DNA of 64,000 nucleotides from Escherichia coli (lineage in GTDB: Bacteria; Pseudomonadota; Gammaproteobacteria; Enterobacterales; Enterobacteriaceae), in assembly GCF_022846255.1 (NCBI RefSeq), contig NZ_AP025682.1; one strand, written 5' to 3'. Position numbers and translations under genes: made by a program. The stretch's first letter is position 1. Every line of letters begins with the position of its first letter. This document shows, piece after piece, positions 9,568-16,709 of this stretch. The notes under the pieces were generated by a model. It saw only the letters and a list, made by a program, of their open reading frames with translations. It made no database searches and was not told the DNA's origin.

Positions 9568-11157
9568 TTACATCACCAGACGGCGAATGTCAGACAGCGT
9601 GTTGTTAATGATGGTAATGAAACGGGCACCATCAGCACCGTCGATCACGCGGTGGTCGAAGGAGAGAGAAATCGGCAGCATCAGACGCGGCACGAACTCT
9701 TTACCATTCCACACCGGCTCCATCGCGGACTTGGAAACGCCGAGGATAGCCACTTCCGGCGCGTTCACAATCGGCGCGAAGTGGGTAGTCCCCAGGCCGC
9801 CGATGCTGGAGATGGTGAAGCAACCGCCCTGCATTTCGCCCGCAGTCAGCTTACCGTCACGCGCTTTCTTAGAAATAGTCATCAGCTCGCGAGACAGCTC
9901 GATGATGCCTTTCTTGTTGACGTCTTTGAATACCGGAACAACCAGACCGTTCGGGGTATCCACCGCCACACCGATGTTGATGTATTTCTTCAGGGTCAGA
10001 CGCTGACCGTCTTCCGACAACGAACTGTTGAAGCGAGGCATCTGCTCAAGAGCTGCAGCAACGGCTTTCATGATGAAGACAACTGGGGTTATCTTCACAT
10101 CCAGCTTACGTTTCGCCGCTTCTTCGTTCTGCTGTTTACGGAACGCTTCCAGCTCGGTGATATCGGTTTTGTCGAAGTGGGTAACATGCGGGATCATCAC
10201 CCAGTTACGGCTCAGGTTCGCACCAGAGATTTTCTGGATACGGCCCAGTTCCACTTCTTCGATTTCACCAAACTTGCTGAAGTCCACCTTCGGCCACGGC
10301 AGCATACCTGGGATACCGCCGCCAGTCGCCGCCGGAGCCGCTTCTGCACGTTTGATAGCTTCTTTCACGTAAGCCTGAACGTCTTCGCGCAGGATACGAC
10401 CTTTACGGCCAGTGCCCTTCACTTTCGCCAGGTTAACGCCAAATTCGCGTGCCAGACGGCGGATCAGCGGAGTCGCGTGAACGTAAGCGTCGTTTTCAGC
10501 AAATTCAGATTTGCCTTCGGCTTTCGCAGCCGGAGCTGCTGCTGGAGCTTCAGCTTTTGCTGCCGGAGCCGGCGCTGCCGCTTCCTGTTTCGCAGGAGCT
10601 GCCGCAGGCGCTGCGCCTTCAACTTCGAAGATCATAATCAGCGAGCCAGTTTTCACTTTATCGCCAACGTTGACTTTCAGTTCCTTCACGACGCCTGCAA
10701 ACGGAGCCGGAACTTCCATAGACGCTTTATCGCCTTCTACGGTGATCAGCGACTGTTCAGCTTCAACTTTATCGCCAACTTTCACCAGGATTTCGGTCAC
10801 TTCAACTTCGTCGCTGCCGATATCCGGAACGTTAACGTCTTTTGCCGCTGCAGCCGCTGGAGCTGCTGCCGGAGCGGCTTCTTTCTTCTCTTCTGCCTGA
10901 GCAGGTGCAGCGTCTGCTGCACCGTCGGCGGAATCGAAAATCATAATCAGTGCGCCGGTCTGGGTTTTATCGCCAACAGAGACTTTGATCTCTTTAACGA
11001 TACCCGCCTGCGGAGACGGAACTTCCATAGAGGCTTTGTCGCCTTCTACGGTGATCAGCGACTGTTCGGCTTCAACTTTGTCGCCCACTTTGACCAGGAT
11101 CTCGGTGATTTCAACTTCATCAGCCCCGATGTCCGGTACTTTGATTTCGATAGCCAT
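9568..11157 (-). CDS. aceF: dihydrolipoyllysine-residue acetyltransferase, pyruvate dehydrogenase E2; this allele has two lipoyl domains (529 aa)
   Basis: Full-length ORF; two KASMEV lipoylation motifs, Ala/Pro linkers, E3-binding and catalytic domain ending DHRVIDGA...RRLVM. Confidence 0.95.
10667..11150. repeat. intragenic direct repeats (~165 nt each, ~320 nt apart) encoding the AceF lipoyl domains
   Basis: Near-identical blocks around 10667-10832 and 10985-11150 (gtgatcagcgactgttc...ggcttcaactt...). Confidence 0.8.
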
Positions 11158-11171
11158 TATTCTTTTACCTC

Positions 11172-13835
11172 TTACGCCAGACGCGGGTTAACTTTATCTG
11201 CATCGATGTTGAATTTGGCGATTGCGTCAGCAACCACTTTCTTATCGATTTCGCCACGTTTAGCCAGTTCGCCCAGCGCCGCAACCACGACATAAGAAGC
11301 ATCAACTTCAAAGTGGTGACGCAGGTTCTCACGGCTGTCGGAACGACCGAAGCCATCAGTACCCAGTACGCGGTAGTCGTCAGCCGGTACGTAAGTACGG
11401 ACCTGCTCAGCGAACAGTTTCATATAGTCGGTAGATGCCACTGCCGGAGCGTCGTTCATCACCTGAGCGATATACGGAACGCGCGGAGTTTCCAGCGGGT
11501 GCAGCATGTTCCAGCGTTCACAATCCTGACCATCACGCGCCAGTTCGGTGAAGGAAGTCACGCTATAAACGTCAGAACCTACGCCGAAATCTTTCGCCAG
11601 GATCTCAGCTGCTTCACGGACGTGACGCAGGATAGAACCGGAGCCGAGCAGCTGAACTTTACCTTTGCTACCTTCAATGGTTTCGAGTTTGTAGATACCT
11701 TTACGGATACCTTCCTCAGCACCTTCCGGCATTGCCGGCATGTGGTAGTTTTCGTTCAGCGTAGTGATGTAGTAGTAAACGTTCTCTTGTTTTTCACCGT
11801 ACATACGCTCCAGACCGTCATGCATGATGACAGCAACTTCGTAAGCGTAAGCAGGGTCGTAAGAGATACAGTTCGGGATAGTCAGCGACTGAATGTGGCT
11901 GTGGCCATCTTCGTGCTGCAGACCTTCACCGTTCAGGGTGGTACGACCGGAAGTACCGCCGATCAGGAAGCCACGCGCTTGCTGGTCGCCAGCCGCCCAG
12001 CACAGATCGCCGATACGCTGGAAGCCGAACATCGAGTAATAGATGTAGAACGGAATCATCGGCAGATTGTTGGTGCTGTAAGAGGTCGCCGCTGCCAGCC
12101 AGGAACAACCTGCGCCCAGCTCGTTGATCCCTTCCTGCAGAATCTGACCTTTCTCGTCTTCTTTATAGTAAGCAACCTGCTCGCGGTCCTGCGGGGTGTA
12201 CTGCTGACCGTTCGGGCTGTAAATACCAATCTGACGGAACAGACCTTCCATACCGAAAGTACGCGCTTCGTCGGCGATGATCGGTACCAGACGATCTTTG
12301 ATCGACTTGTTCTTCAGCATTACGTTCAGGGCACGAACGAAAGCGATAGTGGTAGAGATCTCTTTGCTCTGCTCTTCCAGCAGCGCGCCGAAGTCTTGCA
12401 GGCTCGGCAGCTCAAGCTTCTCGGTGAAGTTCGGCTGACGGCTTGGCAGATAACCGTGCAGTTTCTGACGCTGAGCGTGCAGATAGGTATGCTCTTCAGA
12501 ACCTTCCGGGAAGGTGATGTACGGCAGTTTTTCGATATCGGCATCAGACACCGGCACATTGAAACGGTCGCGGATGTGACGCACGCCGTCCATGTTCATT
12601 TTCTTAACCTGGTGCGCGATGTTTTTACCTTCAGCCGCGTCGCCCATGCCGTAACCTTTAATGGTATGAGCAAGGATTACCGTCGCTTTGCCTTTGGTTT
12701 CCTGCGCTTTCTTGAATGCAGCGTAGATTTTCTTCGGATCGTGACCGCCACGGTTCAGCGCCCAGATCTGCTCGTCAGTCCAGTCTGCAACCAGAGCTGC
12801 GGTTTCCGGATATTTACCGAAGAAGTGTTCACGAACGTACGCACCATCTTTCGATTTGAAGGTCTGGTAGTCGCCGTCAACGGTTTCGTTCATCAGCTGG
12901 ATCAGTTTACCGCTGGTATCTTTACGCAGCAGTTCATCCCAACGGCTACCCCACATCACTTTGATCACGTTCCAGCCAGCACCTTCGAAGATGCCTTCCA
13001 GTTCGTTGATGATCTTGCCGTTACCGGTGACCGGGCCGTCAAGACGCTGCAGGTTACAGTTGATAACGAAGACCAGGTTATCCAGTTTTTCACGGGTAGC
13101 GATGGTGATCGCACCTTTGGATTCCGGTTCGTCCATTTCACCGTCGCCGAGGAACGCGTAAACGGTTTGTTTAGAGGTATCTTTCAGGCCACGGTGTTCC
13201 AGATATTTCAGGAACTTAGCCTGGTAAATAGCACCAATCGGACCCAGCCCCATAGATACGGTCGGGAACTGCCAGAATTCCGGCATCAGTTTCGGGTGCG
13301 GATAGGAAGAGAGGCCATTGCCGTGAACTTCCTGACGGAAGTTATCCAGCTGCTCCTGAGTCAGACGACCTTCCAGGAAAGCACGAGCGTAAACGCCTGG
13401 GGAGATGTGGCCCTGGAAGTAAACCAGGTCGCCGCCATCCTGCTCGTTGCGTGCACGGAAGAAGTGGTTAAAGCACACATCATAAATGGTTGCGGAAGAC
13501 TGGAAGGACGCCATGTGGCCGCCCAGTTCGAGGTCTTTTTTCGACGCACGCAGAACCGTCATGATGGCGTTCCAGCGGATAGCTGAACGAATACGGCGTT
13601 CCAGTTCCAGATTACCCGGATACTCCGGTTGTTCTTCAACGGGGATGGTGTTGATGTAGTTGCTGATACCGGTGCCTGCGGCTACGTTGACACCGCCTTT
13701 GCGGGCTTCAGCAAGCAGTTGGTCGATCAGATACTGAGCACGCTCAACACCTTCTTCACGGATGACCGATTCGATCGCCTGGAGCCAGTCGCGAGTTTCG
13801 ATCGGATCCACGTCATTTGGGAAACGTTCTGACAT
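11172..13835 (-). CDS. aceE: pyruvate dehydrogenase E1 component (887 aa)
   Basis: Full-length [27 protein letters not shown]...; 14 nt upstream of aceF. Confidence 0.97.
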
Positions 13836-13995
13836 GGGTTATTCCTTATCTATCTAATAACGTTGAGTTTTCTGGAACCTGTCCCATTGAACTCTCACCG
13901 GAAAGCTCAATAAGACAGGTTCTACGTTTAGTTGCCGCGCTTTTATATGCGCTTGATTTACAACATCTTCTGGATAATTTTTACCAGAAAAATCA

Positions 13996-14760
13996 CTAAT
14001 TCTTTCGTTGCTCCAGACGACGCAGAGAACGCTCACGGCGGCTCTCTTCACGGCTTCTGTCGAGCAAAATTTCTTCGATAAAGGCCAGATGGCGATGCGA
14101 TGCTTCGCGCGCTTCTTCCGGCTTACCGGCCATAATCGCTTCAAATATACGGGTGCGGTGACTACTCACCAGCGGCAGCATCTCGCGACGCGAATAGAGC
14201 AATTCGAAGTTCTGGCGGACATTCTGGGCCAACATCGGCTCCATACACCTTAGCAGATGAAGCAGAACCACATTGTGGGCCGCTTCGGTGACGGCAATCT
14301 GATACTGGAGTACGGCGTTTGATTCCGCGTCCAGATCGCCAGACTGCTGCGCCAGCTCTATAGCGTGGTGGAGTTCACGGATGCGTTCCTTGTCTTCATC
14401 GGTACTACGCAGCGCGGCGTAATAAGCGGCGATACCTTCCAGGGCGTGTCGTGTTTCGAGCAAGTCATACTGTGATTCAGGATGGTCGGAGAGCAGCTCC
14501 ACCAGCGGATCGCTGAAGCTTTGCCATAGGCTGCTCTGGACAAAAGTGCCGCCACCCTGGCGACGAAGCAACAAGCCCTTCGCTTCGAGACGTTGAATCG
14601 CCTCACGCAATGAGGGACGGGAGACGTCAAACTGTTTTGCCAGTTCGCGTTCCGGTGGGAGTTTTTCGCCCGGGCGGAGAGTGCCTTCGAGGATCAAAAA
14701 CTCCAGTTGCTGCTCAATCACATCGGAGAGTTTTGGTTGGCGGATTTTGCTGTAGGCCAT
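13996..14760 (-). CDS. pdhR: GntR-family pyruvate-responsive repressor PdhR (254 aa)
   Basis: [29 protein letters not shown]... with N-terminal HTH; track ORF extended by 11 codons. Confidence 0.95.
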
Positions 14761-14791: not shown

Positions 14792-14808
14792 AATTGGTCT
14801 TACCAATT
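14792..14808. promoter_or_regulatory. PdhR operator (AATTGGT-N3-ACCAATT) in the pdhR promoter
   Basis: Perfect dyad aattggtcttaccaatt seen ~30 bp upstream of pdhR start. Confidence 0.8.
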
Positions 14809-15213
14809 TCATGTCTGTGACGCTAAAGTAACAAAGTATTCACCTTATGTCCATACATGTTTTGATTGAAATCATGAAACTGTGCACATTTTAACAACTT
14901 GACATATATAACGTTTCAAAGTTGTAACTATGCACAAATGTAGACTTTACGTAGGAAAGGGATTTTTTAACGATTATTAAACTATAAAAATCCGAATTGA
15001 ACCGATTCACTTACCAATTTTGTGATTTTTAATTCAATTAAAACGAATTTAAATTCATTCTGCATATTGAGAGGGGTTGAGGCTGAGCTTTACAAACGGT
15101 TTCTTTTTAAGCAACTCATCTTCAACCATGCATAAAGCGGGTGCATTCGCTGTCGCATACCATTATTCTTGATCTGACGGAAGTCTTTTTGTAACAATTC
15201 AAACTTCTTTGAT

Positions 15214-15231
15214 GTAAACAAATTAATACAA
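15214..15231. promoter_or_regulatory. putative TyrR box upstream of aroP
   Basis: tgtaaacaaattaataca resembles TGTAAA-N6-TTTACA (4/6 match in the right half); aroP is a known TyrR-regulon member. Confidence 0.35.
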
Positions 15232-15300
15232 CAAACGGAATTGCAAACTTACACACGCATCACTGCGTAGATCAAAAAAACAATCACCGCACGAGGTTTC

Positions 15301-16674
15301 ATGATGGAAGGTCAACAGCACGGCGAGCAGCTAAAGCGCGGCCTTAAAAACCGCCATATTCAGCTTATCGCGCTGGGTGGCGCGATAGGGACCGGGTTAT
15401 TCCTGGGTAGCGCCTCCGTAATACAGTCCGCAGGGCCAGGGATTATCCTGGGTTACGCCATTGCTGGTTTTATCGCCTTTCTGATCATGCGTCAGCTGGG
15501 TGAAATGGTGGTCGAAGAACCTGTCGCAGGCTCCTTTAGCCACTTTGCTTATAAATACTGGGGCAGTTTTGCCGGTTTCGCCTCTGGCTGGAACTACTGG
15601 GTACTGTACGTTTTAGTTGCCATGGCAGAGCTGACTGCCGTGGGTAAATACATTCAGTTCTGGTATCCGGAAATCCCAACCTGGGTTTCTGCCGCCGTGT
15701 TCTTTGTGGTGATCAACGCCATCAACCTGACAAACGTAAAAGTGTTTGGCGAGATGGAGTTCTGGTTTGCCATTATCAAAGTTATCGCGGTGGTAGCGAT
15801 GATCATCTTCGGCGCCTGGCTGCTATTCAGCGGCAACGGCGGCCCGCAGGCGAGCGTTAGCAACCTGTGGGATCAGGGTGGTTTCCTGCCACACGGCTTC
15901 ACCGGTCTGGTGATGATGATGGCGATTATCATGTTCTCTTTCGGTGGTCTGGAACTGGTGGGGATCACCGCAGCAGAAGCTGATAACCCGGAGCAAAGTA
16001 TCCCAAAAGCAACTAACCAGGTTATCTACCGCATCCTGATTTTCTATATTGGTTCGTTAGCCGTTCTGCTCTCACTAATGCCGTGGACCCGCGTTACCGC
16101 CGATACCAGTCCGTTTGTGCTGATCTTCCACGAGTTAGGCGATACCTTTGTAGCGAATGCGCTGAATATCGTGGTACTGACTGCTGCGCTCTCCGTGTAC
16201 AACAGCTGCGTATATTGCAACAGCCGTATGCTGTTCGGTCTGGCACAACAAGGGAACGCGCCAAAAGCGCTGGCGTCTGTCGATAAACGCGGCGTACCGG
16301 TTAACACTATTCTGGTGTCTGCGCTGGTTACGGCATTGTGCGTACTGATTAACTACCTTGCCCCAGAGTCCGCTTTCGGACTGTTAATGGCGCTGGTGGT
16401 ATCTGCACTGGTCATCAACTGGGCGATGATCAGTCTGGCGCATATGAAATTCCGTCGTGCCAAACAAGAACAAGGCGTGGTAACTCGCTTCCCTGCCCTG
16501 CTTTATCCGCTGGGTAACTGGATCTGCCTGCTGTTTATGGCGGCGGTACTGGTGATTATGCTGATGACCCCAGGAATGGCGATTTCGGTATACCTGATCC
16601 CGGTATGGCTGATCGTGTTAGGTATCGGCTATCTGTTTAAAGAGAAAACCGCCAAAGCCGTAAAAGCGCATTAA
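15301..16674 (+). CDS. aroP: aromatic amino acid:H+ symporter (457 aa)
   Basis: Full-length APC-family permease ORF matching AroP. Confidence 0.95.
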   Translation: MMEGQQHGEQLKRGLKNRHIQLIALGGAIGTGLFLGSASVIQSAGPGIILGYAIAGFIAFLIMRQLGEMVVEEPVAGSFSHFAYKYWGSFAGFASGWNYWVLYVLVAMAELTAVGKYIQFWYPEIPTWVSAAVFFVVINAINLTNVKVFGEMEFWFAIIKVIAVVAMIIFGAWLLFSGNGGPQASVSNLWDQGGFLPHGFTGLVMMMAIIMFSFGGLELVGITAAEADNPEQSIPKATNQVIYRILIFYIGSLAVLLSLMPWTRVTADTSPFVLIFHELGDTFVANALNIVVLTAALSVYNSCVYCNSRMLFGLAQQGNAPKALASVDKRGVPVNTILVSALVTALCVLINYLAPESAFGLLMALVVSALVINWAMISLAHMKFRRAKQEQGVVTRFPALLYPLGNWICLLFMAAVLVIMLMTPGMAISVYLIPVWLIVLGIGYLFKEKTAKAVKAH

Positions 16675-16683
16675 TCTCTCTAC

Positions 16684-16709
16684 GCCCTCACCCGTGCAGG
16701 GTGAGGGCA
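16684..16709. terminator. hairpin terminator between convergent aroP and ampE
   Basis: Inverted repeat gccctcaccc / gggtgagggc with 5-nt loop. Confidence 0.65.

What the first reader, a model, noticed from the sequence alone, without database searches (positions are those of the whole stretch)
9568..11157. AceF (PDH E2) with two lipoyl domains instead of the three in the K-12 reference
The aceF ORF here is 529 aa and contains two lipoyl domains (two KASMEV lipoylation motifs). From memory, the K-12 protein is 630 aa with three. The second domain looks like a hybrid: its N-terminal half resembles K-12 domain 2 and its C-terminal half plus linker resembles domain 3. That is what an in-frame ~303-nt deletion by recombination between the ~300-bp direct repeats would produce. 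Engineered E2 chains with one or two lipoyl domains are known to be functional, so this is probably a viable natural or laboratory allele, but it could also be an assembly collapse of the tandem repeats.
Basis: partly seen in the sequence, partly recalled or inferred. Interest (0 to 1): 0.5.

Follow-up and report, generated by a model that had tools for sequence, protein, structure and literature searches.

The report
Natural two-lipoyl-domain AceF deletion allele
This E. coli isolate carries a pyruvate dehydrogenase E2 gene that has lost exactly one of its three repeated lipoyl-domain units through recombination between the repeats; the allele is real but rare, has arisen repeatedly in nature, and is of modest rather than major interest.

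Summary
Window 9568-11157 (-) is an intact 529-aa aceF with two lipoyl domains. K-12 aceF encodes 630 aa with three. The only length difference is one clean 303-nt in-frame gap, and the window protein equals K-12 AceF minus 101 residues. All 30 other nucleotide differences are synonymous.

The second domain is an in-register hybrid of unit 2 (N-terminal part) and unit 3 (C-terminal part). The crossover lies in a 20-nt identical run (window 10730-10749) just upstream of the lipoyl-lysine codon.

Assembly collapse is very unlikely. Units 2 and 3 are only about 78% identical and share exact runs of at most 33 nt. Unit-specific bases 21 nt apart flank the junction. The same protein occurs on at least 182 public contigs, several of them chromosome-scale.

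The deletion is recurrent. There are at least three junction classes on diverged backgrounds, and one exact parent/derivative pair. The reciprocal four-domain duplications also exist. About 11 of 5,424 complete E. coli genomes (0.2%) carry a short aceF.

This is the natural counterpart of the engineered two-lipoyl-domain E2p chains. It most likely arose by short-homology unequal exchange or replication slippage. It is probably functional, and neutral or mildly deleterious. Interest is low to moderate.

The parts
9568..11157 (-). aceF ORF, 529 aa plus stop: PDH complex E2p with two lipoyl domains
   Evidence: ORF list; Pfam architecture; identical to L012 / GCA_005387665.1
10918..11157 (-). Lipoyl domain 1 (aa 1-80), unchanged relative to K-12; lipoyl-Lys K41 codon at 11035-11037
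10843..10917 (-). Ala/Pro-rich linker 1 (aa 81-105), retained
10603..10842 (-). Hybrid lipoyl domain (aa 106-185): the N-terminal part comes from unit 2 and the C-terminal part from unit 3. It matches K-12 domain 2 at 73/80 aa and domain 3 at 75/80 aa. The lipoyl-Lys K144 codon is at 10726-10728.
10730..10749 (-). Crossover interval: the 20-nt run CTGATCACCGTAGAAGGCGA (gene nt 409-428), identical in units 2 and 3. It is bounded by the unit-2-specific G408 and the unit-3-specific T429.
10483..10602 (-). Linker 3 (aa 186-225), retained. Linker 2 and the unit-2 C-half plus unit-3 N-half are the 303 nt that are missing.
10375..10482 (-). Peripheral subunit-binding (E3_binding) domain
9571..10266 (-). 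Catalytic acetyltransferase domain (2-oxoacid_dh), containing the DHRVIDGA active-site motif
11172..13835 (-). aceE (E1p, 887 aa), immediately upstream in the operon
7936..9360 (-). lpd (E3, 474 aa), downstream. The aceF-lpd spacer is 207 nt here, against 324 nt in K-12.
13996..14760 (-). pdhR (254 aa), repressor of the operon

Best explanation
The window carries a genuine, naturally occurring aceF allele. A single in-register 303-nt deletion has fused the N-terminal part of lipoyl unit 2 to the C-terminal part of unit 3.

Shown:
- The deletion length equals the unit-2/unit-3 repeat period.
- The junction lies in a 20-nt run that is identical in both units, just upstream of the lipoyl-lysine codon.

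Inferred:
- The event was short-homology recombination between misaligned repeats. This could be unequal sister-chromosome exchange or replication slippage/template switching. RecA dependence is unknown.
- The product is an E2p chain with lipoyl domain 1, linker 1, a normally folded hybrid lipoyl domain, linker 3, the subunit-binding domain and the catalytic core.
- A 24-mer core would carry 48 rather than 72 lipoyl arms and should still assemble and work.
- By analogy with engineered two-lipoyl-domain complexes, there may be a small growth cost.

The same kind of event has happened repeatedly in E. coli.
For: - **Structure of the change.** There is one clean 303-nt gap against K-12. The protein equals K-12 AceF minus 101 aa, and all 30 other nucleotide differences are synonymous.
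- **The hybrid domain looks normal.** Pfam gives a full-length match for it, scoring 79.7 against 76.9 for domain 1. It matches K-12 domain 3, whose solved structure is PDB 1QJO, at 75/80 aa.
- **Simulated deletion.** Removing 303 nt after nt 408-428 from the three-domain allele L014 reproduces the window junction (nt 381-480) exactly. Only 7 differences remain over 1590 nt.
- **Parent/derivative pair.** The two-domain allele L005 equals L014 minus 303 nt after nt 435-461, with 0 differences.
- **Several junction classes.** At least three occur among 13 two-domain alleles that encode the same or nearly the same protein.
- **Diverged backgrounds.** The two-domain loci differ by up to 81 of 5052 nt in their flanks and are interspersed with three-domain alleles.
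- **Reciprocal products exist.** P0033, P0041 and P0044 have the order 1-2-(3N/2C)-3. P0031 has the order 1-(2N/1C)-2-3.
- **Against an artefact.** Units 2 and 3 are 78-79% identical and share in-register exact runs of at most 33 nt. The exact protein is on at least 182 contigs, including chromosome-scale contigs of 4.6-5.3 Mb and complete genomes such as C2, C4 and CP099020.
Against: - I had no raw reads for GCA_005387665.1. The window's own contig is from a draft assembly, so its structure is supported by argument and analogy rather than by read evidence.
- No close three-domain relative of this exact lineage was found. The best flank identity to any complete genome is 99.3%. The parental allele is therefore inferred from L014-like sequences.
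- Function and fitness were not measured. The growth-cost statement rests only on the title of Dave, Guest & Attwood 1995, as cited in PMC10579247, and on my recollection of the Guest-laboratory papers.
Confidence: 0.9

Rival explanations
1. Assembly artefact: the isolate really has three lipoyl units, and the assembler collapsed units 2 and 3 into one.
For: The source is a draft assembly with a 72-kb contig. The region is a tandem repeat. I could not inspect reads.
Against: - Units 2 and 3 are only 78-79% identical.
- The junction is bounded by unit-2-specific G408 and unit-3-specific T429, 21 nt apart. Any k-mer of 22 nt or more across it could come only from a real recombinant molecule.
- The contig runs cleanly through the region and stays in frame.
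- The same structural allele occurs in complete and chromosome-scale assemblies.
Confidence: 0.03
2. The deletion did not arise in this lineage. A single older two-domain allele (junction class I) spread among E. coli lineages by homologous recombination, and this strain imported it.
For: - Seven of 13 two-domain alleles share the class I interval, nt 409-428.
- The window and L005 are nearly identical downstream of the junction (6 of 2388 nt differ) but diverge upstream (32 of 2664 nt). This shows an inter-strain recombination breakpoint in or near aceF.
Against: - Class I alleles differ from one another at unit-3 sites next to the junction (nt 435 G or T, nt 453 T or G) and throughout the gene.
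- Other junction classes, and four other deletion types, show that the locus deletes repeatedly.
- L008 and L010 have identical flanks but different junctions.
Confidence: 0.15
3. The deletion arose during laboratory passage of the isolate before sequencing, so it is not a property of the wild population.
For: Repeat-mediated deletions can arise quickly in culture, and nothing in the sequence dates the event.
Against: Identical or equivalent alleles occur in hundreds of independently sequenced isolates and in metagenome assemblies. The Guest-laboratory work (title cited) reports lower, not higher, growth rate and yield for reduced lipoyl-domain content, so I would not expect a laboratory sweep.
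Confidence: 0.04

Closest known systems
Engineered E. coli E2p chains with one or two lipoyl domains and hybrid lipoyl domains (Guest/Perham laboratories: Guest et al. 1985 J Mol Biol 185:743; Dave, Guest & Attwood 1995 Microbiology 141:1839)
   Same: Both have an in-register fusion of two lipoyl units within the conserved core, giving a folded hybrid domain. Both have fewer lipoyl domains with the linkers, subunit-binding domain and catalytic core intact. Hybrid-domain constructs are standard material for NMR and enzymology (PMC6270654; references in PMC8421416).
   Different: Those alleles were built in vitro in K-12, and the commonly used hybrid is a domain 1/3 fusion in a one-domain chain. 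The window allele is a spontaneous 2N/3C hybrid in a wild, non-K-12 background, with 30 synonymous differences from K-12. I could not read the original papers, so the comparison rests partly on memory.
Wild-type E. coli K-12 AceF (P06959, 630 aa; cryo-EM structure 7B9K; inner lipoyl domain 1QJO)
   Same: The amino-acid sequence is identical outside the 101-residue deletion. The operon context pdhR-aceE-aceF-lpd is the same.
   Different: The window has two lipoyl domains instead of three, so 48 instead of 72 lipoyl domains per 24-mer core. Linker 2 is absent.
Short-homology deletion and duplication between tandem repeats in E. coli (replication slippage or unequal sister-chromosome exchange)
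   Same: The deletion length equals the repeat period. The junction lies in a short identical run within diverged repeats. Reciprocal duplication products are present in the population.
   Different: The mechanism here is inferred from products only. RecA and mismatch-repair dependence and the event rate are unknown.
Species-level variation in lipoyl-domain number of E2 chains (one to three per chain across organisms)
   Same: E2p chains with two lipoyl domains are normal in other species (PMC8421416, PMC6270654, PMC10579247).
   Different: Here the number varies within one species, as a rare polymorphism derived from a three-domain ancestor.

Membership tests
PDH complex E2p (AceF, dihydrolipoyllysine-residue acetyltransferase) | N-terminal lipoyl domain(s) carrying the DKA lipoyl-lysine motif | tested here: met
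   Two Biotin_lipoyl matches with E-values 1e-21 and 1.4e-22; GDKASMEV at K41 and K144
PDH complex E2p (AceF, dihydrolipoyllysine-residue acetyltransferase) | Peripheral subunit-binding domain followed by a 2-oxoacid_dh catalytic domain with the DHRxxDG motif | tested here: met
   E3_binding at 226-261 and 2-oxoacid_dh at 298-528; [10 protein letters not shown] in the translation
PDH complex E2p (AceF, dihydrolipoyllysine-residue acetyltransferase) | Operon context pdhR-aceE-aceF-lpd | tested here: met
   ORF layout and annotated homologous loci
PDH complex E2p (AceF, dihydrolipoyllysine-residue acetyltransferase) | Lipoylation of both domains and catalytic activity of the assembled complex | not testable with these tools
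   Needs biochemistry. Inferred from identity to K-12 outside the deletion.
Repeat-mediated in-register deletion (unequal exchange or slippage) | Deletion length equals the repeat period, and the junction falls in sequence identical between the two repeats | tested here: met
   The gap is 303 nt, equal to the unit-2/unit-3 offset. The junction lies in a 20-nt identical run.
Repeat-mediated in-register deletion (unequal exchange or slippage) | A plausible parental allele regenerates the product in silico, and reciprocal duplications exist | tested here: met
   The L014 deletion reproduces the junction. L005 equals L014 minus 303 nt with 0 differences. P0033 and P0031 are four-domain reciprocals.
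Repeat-mediated in-register deletion (unequal exchange or slippage) | Dependence on RecA or on replication slippage; suppression by mismatch repair | not testable with these tools
   Needs genetics (fluctuation assays in recA and mutS backgrounds)
Assembly collapse of tandem repeats | Repeat copies are near-identical over stretches longer than the assembler's k-mer or read length | tested here: not met
   Identity is 78-79% and the longest shared in-register run is 23-33 nt in seven three-domain alleles. The run is 20 nt at this junction.
Assembly collapse of tandem repeats | Reads contradict the contig (excess coverage, or reads carrying the missing unit) | not testable with these tools
   No read data available
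Engineered two-lipoyl-domain E2p (Guest laboratory alleles) | Derived from the K-12 aceF sequence by in vitro deletion | tested here: not met
   There are 30 synonymous differences from K-12 within aceF. The flanks are at most 99.3% identical to any complete E. coli genome. The allele works like the engineered ones but is not one of them.

The most novel reading that the evidence does not exclude
Lipoyl-domain number in AceF may be a naturally tunable trait. The repeats would act as a low-rate expansion/contraction locus giving two, three or four domains. Short alleles would then be favoured in some niches or lineages rather than being merely tolerated. In favour: the (1N/2C)-3 allele of 527 aa sits on 454 contigs and the window's allele on 182. 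Possible advantages include cheaper protein, lower lipoate demand or altered pyruvate flux. My evidence shows recurrence and persistence, but it cannot tell selection from drift or clonal hitch-hiking.
Probability: 0.12. Interest if true: 0.5.

Novelty: new member of a known kind. Interest (0 to 1): 0.27.

Why it matters
The Guest laboratory used engineered strains to ask why E. coli keeps three nearly redundant lipoyl domains. Nature has run the same experiment many times, producing rare two-domain and four-domain alleles by recombination between the repeats. These alleles come with exact parent/derivative pairs, so they could be used to measure the fitness effect of domain number in wild backgrounds. 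In practical terms, the result tells annotators that short aceF genes of this kind are real. At least one such allele is mislabelled as a pseudogene by PGAP. For the scan itself, this is an ordinary, explained feature rather than a new system.

Tried and rejected
- **Unit-2 probe for counting alleles.** I searched the complete genomes with K-12 unit 2 alone to count intact versus deleted alleles. It did not discriminate, because hybrid alleles still align over at least 80% of the query at lower identity. The count of about 11 short alleles comes instead.
- **YacH-sharing loci as parents.** L013-L015 share the window's exact YacH but differ at about 84 sites in 10.6 kb, so they are not close relatives. 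L014 nevertheless turned out to have the right aceF haplotype.
- **Flank search for a parent.** The aceE-pdhR search for a near-identical three-domain parent among complete genomes gave at best 99.3% identity.
- **Literature.** Searches for natural aceF domain-number polymorphism, VNTR use, evolved-strain deletions and the source assembly found nothing relevant. Dave et al. 1995 is not held in the library.
- **K-12-only crossover mapping.** This placed the junction near nt 453-462. I rejected it once L014 showed that GAT AAA GCG is a unit-3 haplotype.
- **Laboratory K-12 allele.** Rejected on the synonymous divergence from K-12.
- **Two domains as the ancestral state.** Rejected, because the second domain is a mosaic of units 2 and 3 of existing three-domain alleles.

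Full report
**What is there.** Window 9568-11157 (minus strand) is an uninterrupted 529-aa ORF. It lies between aceE (11172-13835) and lpd (7936-9360), with pdhR upstream. Pfam finds two full-length lipoyl domains (residues 4-73 and 107-176), an E3-binding domain (226-261) and the 2-oxoacid_dh catalytic domain (298-528). The two lipoyl-lysine motifs GDKASMEV place the modified lysines at K41 and K144.

**The difference from the reference.** A DNA alignment of the two genes shows one gap of exactly 303 nt and 30 substitutions. The window protein equals K-12 AceF with 101 residues removed. At the protein level the deletion can be placed anywhere within the shared peptide [23 protein letters not shown]. 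All 30 substitutions are synonymous. The second domain is therefore an in-register hybrid: unit 2 at its N-terminal end, unit 3 at its C-terminal end, followed by linker 3. It matches K-12 domain 2 at 73/80 residues and domain 3 at 75/80. Domain 3 is the one with a solved structure, PDB 1QJO.

**Where the crossover is.** Against K-12 alone the junction seemed to lie near nt 453-462. Other three-domain alleles changed this. L014's unit 3 carries exactly the window's GAT AAA GCG codons at nt 427-435. The last unit-2-specific base is G408 and the first unit-3-specific base is T429. The exchange therefore occurred within the 20-nt run CTGATCACCGTAGAAGGCGA, gene nt 409-428, window 10730-10749. Deleting 303 nt after nt 408-428 from L014 reproduces window nt 381-480 exactly. 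Only 7 differences remain over the whole 1590-nt gene.

**Source, and the artefact question.** The window is identical over 13,694 nt to contig BFRP01000174.1 (72 kb) of draft assembly GCA_005387665.1. I could not see reads, so the collapse hypothesis is addressed indirectly.
- Units 2 and 3 are only 78-79% identical. Their longest in-register exact runs are 23-33 nt in seven three-domain alleles.
- Unit-specific bases 21 nt apart flank the junction. Any k-mer of 22 nt or more across it can exist only in a true recombinant molecule.
- The contig runs through the region in frame.
- The identical 529-aa protein is recorded on at least 182 contigs in 434 collection blocks. These include contigs of 4.6-5.3 Mb and complete genomes. 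Complete genomes C2, C4 and VTB97379v have 1590-nt aceF genes.

Collapse is very unlikely; I put it at about 3%. A K-12 laboratory construct is excluded by the synonymous divergence from K-12. The flanks also match no complete genome better than 99.3%.

**Recurrence.** Ten loci encoding the identical protein (L002-L011) differ from the window at 10-34 synonymous sites in aceF and at 32-44 sites in pdhR-aceE. In aceE, the aceF catalytic region and lpd together, two-domain loci differ by up to 81 of 5052 nt. They are interspersed with three-domain alleles; for example, the window's nearest neighbour is the three-domain strain A25. Junction mapping gives at least three classes:

| Class | Crossover interval (gene nt) | Alleles |
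|---|---|---|
| I | 409-428 | window, L002, L003, L006, L007, L009, C2, probably L011 |
| II | 436-461 | L004, L005, L010, VTB97379v |
| III | 407 or earlier | L008 |

The two-domain allele L005 equals the three-domain allele L014 minus 303 nt, with zero other differences over 1590 nt. This is a direct parent/derivative pair. L008 and L010 have identical flanks (0 of 5052 nt differ) but different junction bases at nt 408, 429 and 432. That means either two events in one clone or segregation of one heteroduplex.

**Other rearrangements of the same repeats.** Complete genomes also carry these in-frame variants:

| Allele | Length | Strains |
|---|---|---|
| (1N/2C)-3 | 527 aa | 01_3327, 03_3013 |
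| 1-3, crossover in the Ala/Pro linkers | 528 and 530 aa | DSM 103263, FDAARGOS_1283 |
| Out-of-register 192-nt deletion | 566 aa | 447/439/446 clone, and probably strain 463 (partial match) |

In all, about 11 of 5,424 complete genomes (0.2%) have a short aceF. The protein database also holds four-domain chains. P0033, P0041 and P0044 have the order 1-2-(3N/2C)-3, the exact reciprocal of the window's deletion. P0031 has the order 1-(2N/1C)-2-3, the reciprocal of the 527-aa allele.

Contig counts for exact sequences are as follows:

| Protein | Contigs |
|---|---|
| 527 aa | 454 |
| 529 aa (window) | 182 |
| 530 aa | 22 |
| 529 aa (VTB97379v variant) | 17 |
| 566 aa | 6 |
| 528 aa | 2 |
| Four-domain forms | 2-4 each |

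**Mechanism.** The following are shown: the deletion equals one repeat period, the junction lies in a short identical run inside diverged repeats, reciprocal duplications exist, and the events recur. From these I infer unequal exchange between misaligned sister chromosomes, or replication slippage/template switching, through the most conserved stretch of the lipoyl-domain coding sequence. Identical runs of only 20-33 nt within 78%-identical DNA are at or below the length usually needed for efficient RecA-mediated exchange. Mismatch repair would also act against such exchange. That statement rests on my general knowledge, not on a test here. A RecA-independent route is therefore at least as likely. 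Telling the two apart needs genetics.

**Function.** The hybrid domain is in register, keeps the lipoyl-lysine turn, and matches the Pfam model end to end. The rest of the protein is identical to K-12. An assembled 24-mer would carry 48 instead of 72 lipoyl domains. Engineered E. coli E2p chains with hybrid lipoyl domains and fewer domains are established experimental material (PMC6270654; reference list of PMC8421416). Lowering the domain content is reported, by title, to reduce growth rate and yield (Dave, Guest & Attwood 1995, cited in PMC10579247). I could not read that paper. The rarity of short alleles fits a functional but slightly disadvantageous or neutral variant. The 454-contig spread of the 527-aa allele shows that such alleles can persist in successful clones. 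None of this was measured here.

**Comparison with what is known, and novelty.** The gene is an unambiguous member of the AceF/E2p family. The allele is the natural counterpart of engineered two-lipoyl-domain chains, but it is not one of them. Eight searches of the accessible literature found no description of within-species lipoyl-domain copy-number polymorphism in E. coli. That library lacks most subscription-journal papers, so this is not proof of novelty. The proteins themselves are already in public databases under the standard name. I rate this as a new member of a known kind, of low to moderate interest.

**Verdict.** It is refined in three ways: the exact crossover interval, evidence that the allele is natural and recurrent, and the artefact alternative made very unlikely.

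Noticed in passing
L023 301-1884 (NZ_CP074961.1, strain 01_3327): The 527-aa (1N/2C)-3 aceF allele is an intact ORF starting [14 protein letters not shown] nevertheless annotates it as a pseudogene ('incomplete; missing N-terminus'). The exact protein is on 454 contigs, more than the window's allele.
   Followed up: partly
L022 301-2001 (NZ_CP183089.1, strain 447; also strains 439 and 446, and probably 463): A 566-aa aceF produced by an out-of-register 192-nt deletion between VNVGDKV of unit 2 and VKVGDKV of unit 3. It leaves an aberrant unit of about 1.4 domains with two DKA motifs. Whether this folds or is lipoylated is unknown.
   Followed up: partly
Proteins P0031, P0033, P0041, P0044; also P0064, P0066, P0067: Four-lipoyl-domain AceF chains (723-735 aa) exist in E. 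coli and apparently in Salmonella and Citrobacter. The E. coli ones are exact reciprocals of the deletion alleles.
   Followed up: partly
Proteins P0065 (680 aa) and P0068 (668 aa): Other in-frame partial duplications in E. coli AceF. P0065 repeats about 50 aa that cover the subunit-binding domain (RRLAREFG...ATGGGI twice). P0068 repeats part of lipoyl domain 2.
   Followed up: no
L008 and L010, aceF nt about 373-398: Unit 2 carries a patch, GTCAAAGTGGGCGACAAAGTTGAAGC, that matches unit 1 rather than the usual unit-2 sequence. This suggests intragenic gene conversion between lipoyl units.
   Followed up: no
window 5913-7694 (+), yacH; arrays at 6828-6895 and 7326-7557: YacH (DUF3300) contains a 24-nt His/Asp-coding array (2.8 copies) and a 96-nt array (2.4 copies, 88% matches). 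Its length varies among strains: 585, 587 and 593 aa, and 617 aa in K-12. It is a second repeat-length polymorphism next to the pdh operon.
   Followed up: partly
window 9361-9567 (aceF-lpd spacer): The spacer is 207 nt here, and also in GF43, L004, L005, L008 and L010. It is 324 nt in K-12 and several other loci. K-12 has an extra segment of about 117 nt just upstream of lpd.
   Followed up: no
window 13838-13951 (+) and 7775-7817 (-): Two Rfam matches above gathering score. One is the tp2 sRNA (103.7 bits), in the pdhR-aceE spacer on the strand opposite the operon. The other is ES036/CssrF (38.2 bits), between yacH and lpd.
   Followed up: no
L004, L005, L008, L010 positions 1-1950 versus window 14800-16700: Some two-domain loci have an Hcp-linked DNase toxin with a Colicin_Pyocin immunity gene array immediately upstream of pdhR. 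The window, like K-12, instead has a 457-aa ORF at 15301-16674 in the position of aroP.
   Followed up: no
window 9523-11295 (+) and 11313-13586 (+): Long stop-free antisense ORFs (590 and 757 aa) lie opposite aceF and aceE. They are most likely a by-product of codon composition rather than genes.
   Followed up: no
Protein cluster 1: The 90%-identity cluster holding K-12 AceF (16,813 members) also contains 887-aa AceE sequences and has an AceE-length representative. This looks like a clustering artefact. Cluster sizes for AceF should therefore not be read as allele frequencies.
   Followed up: no
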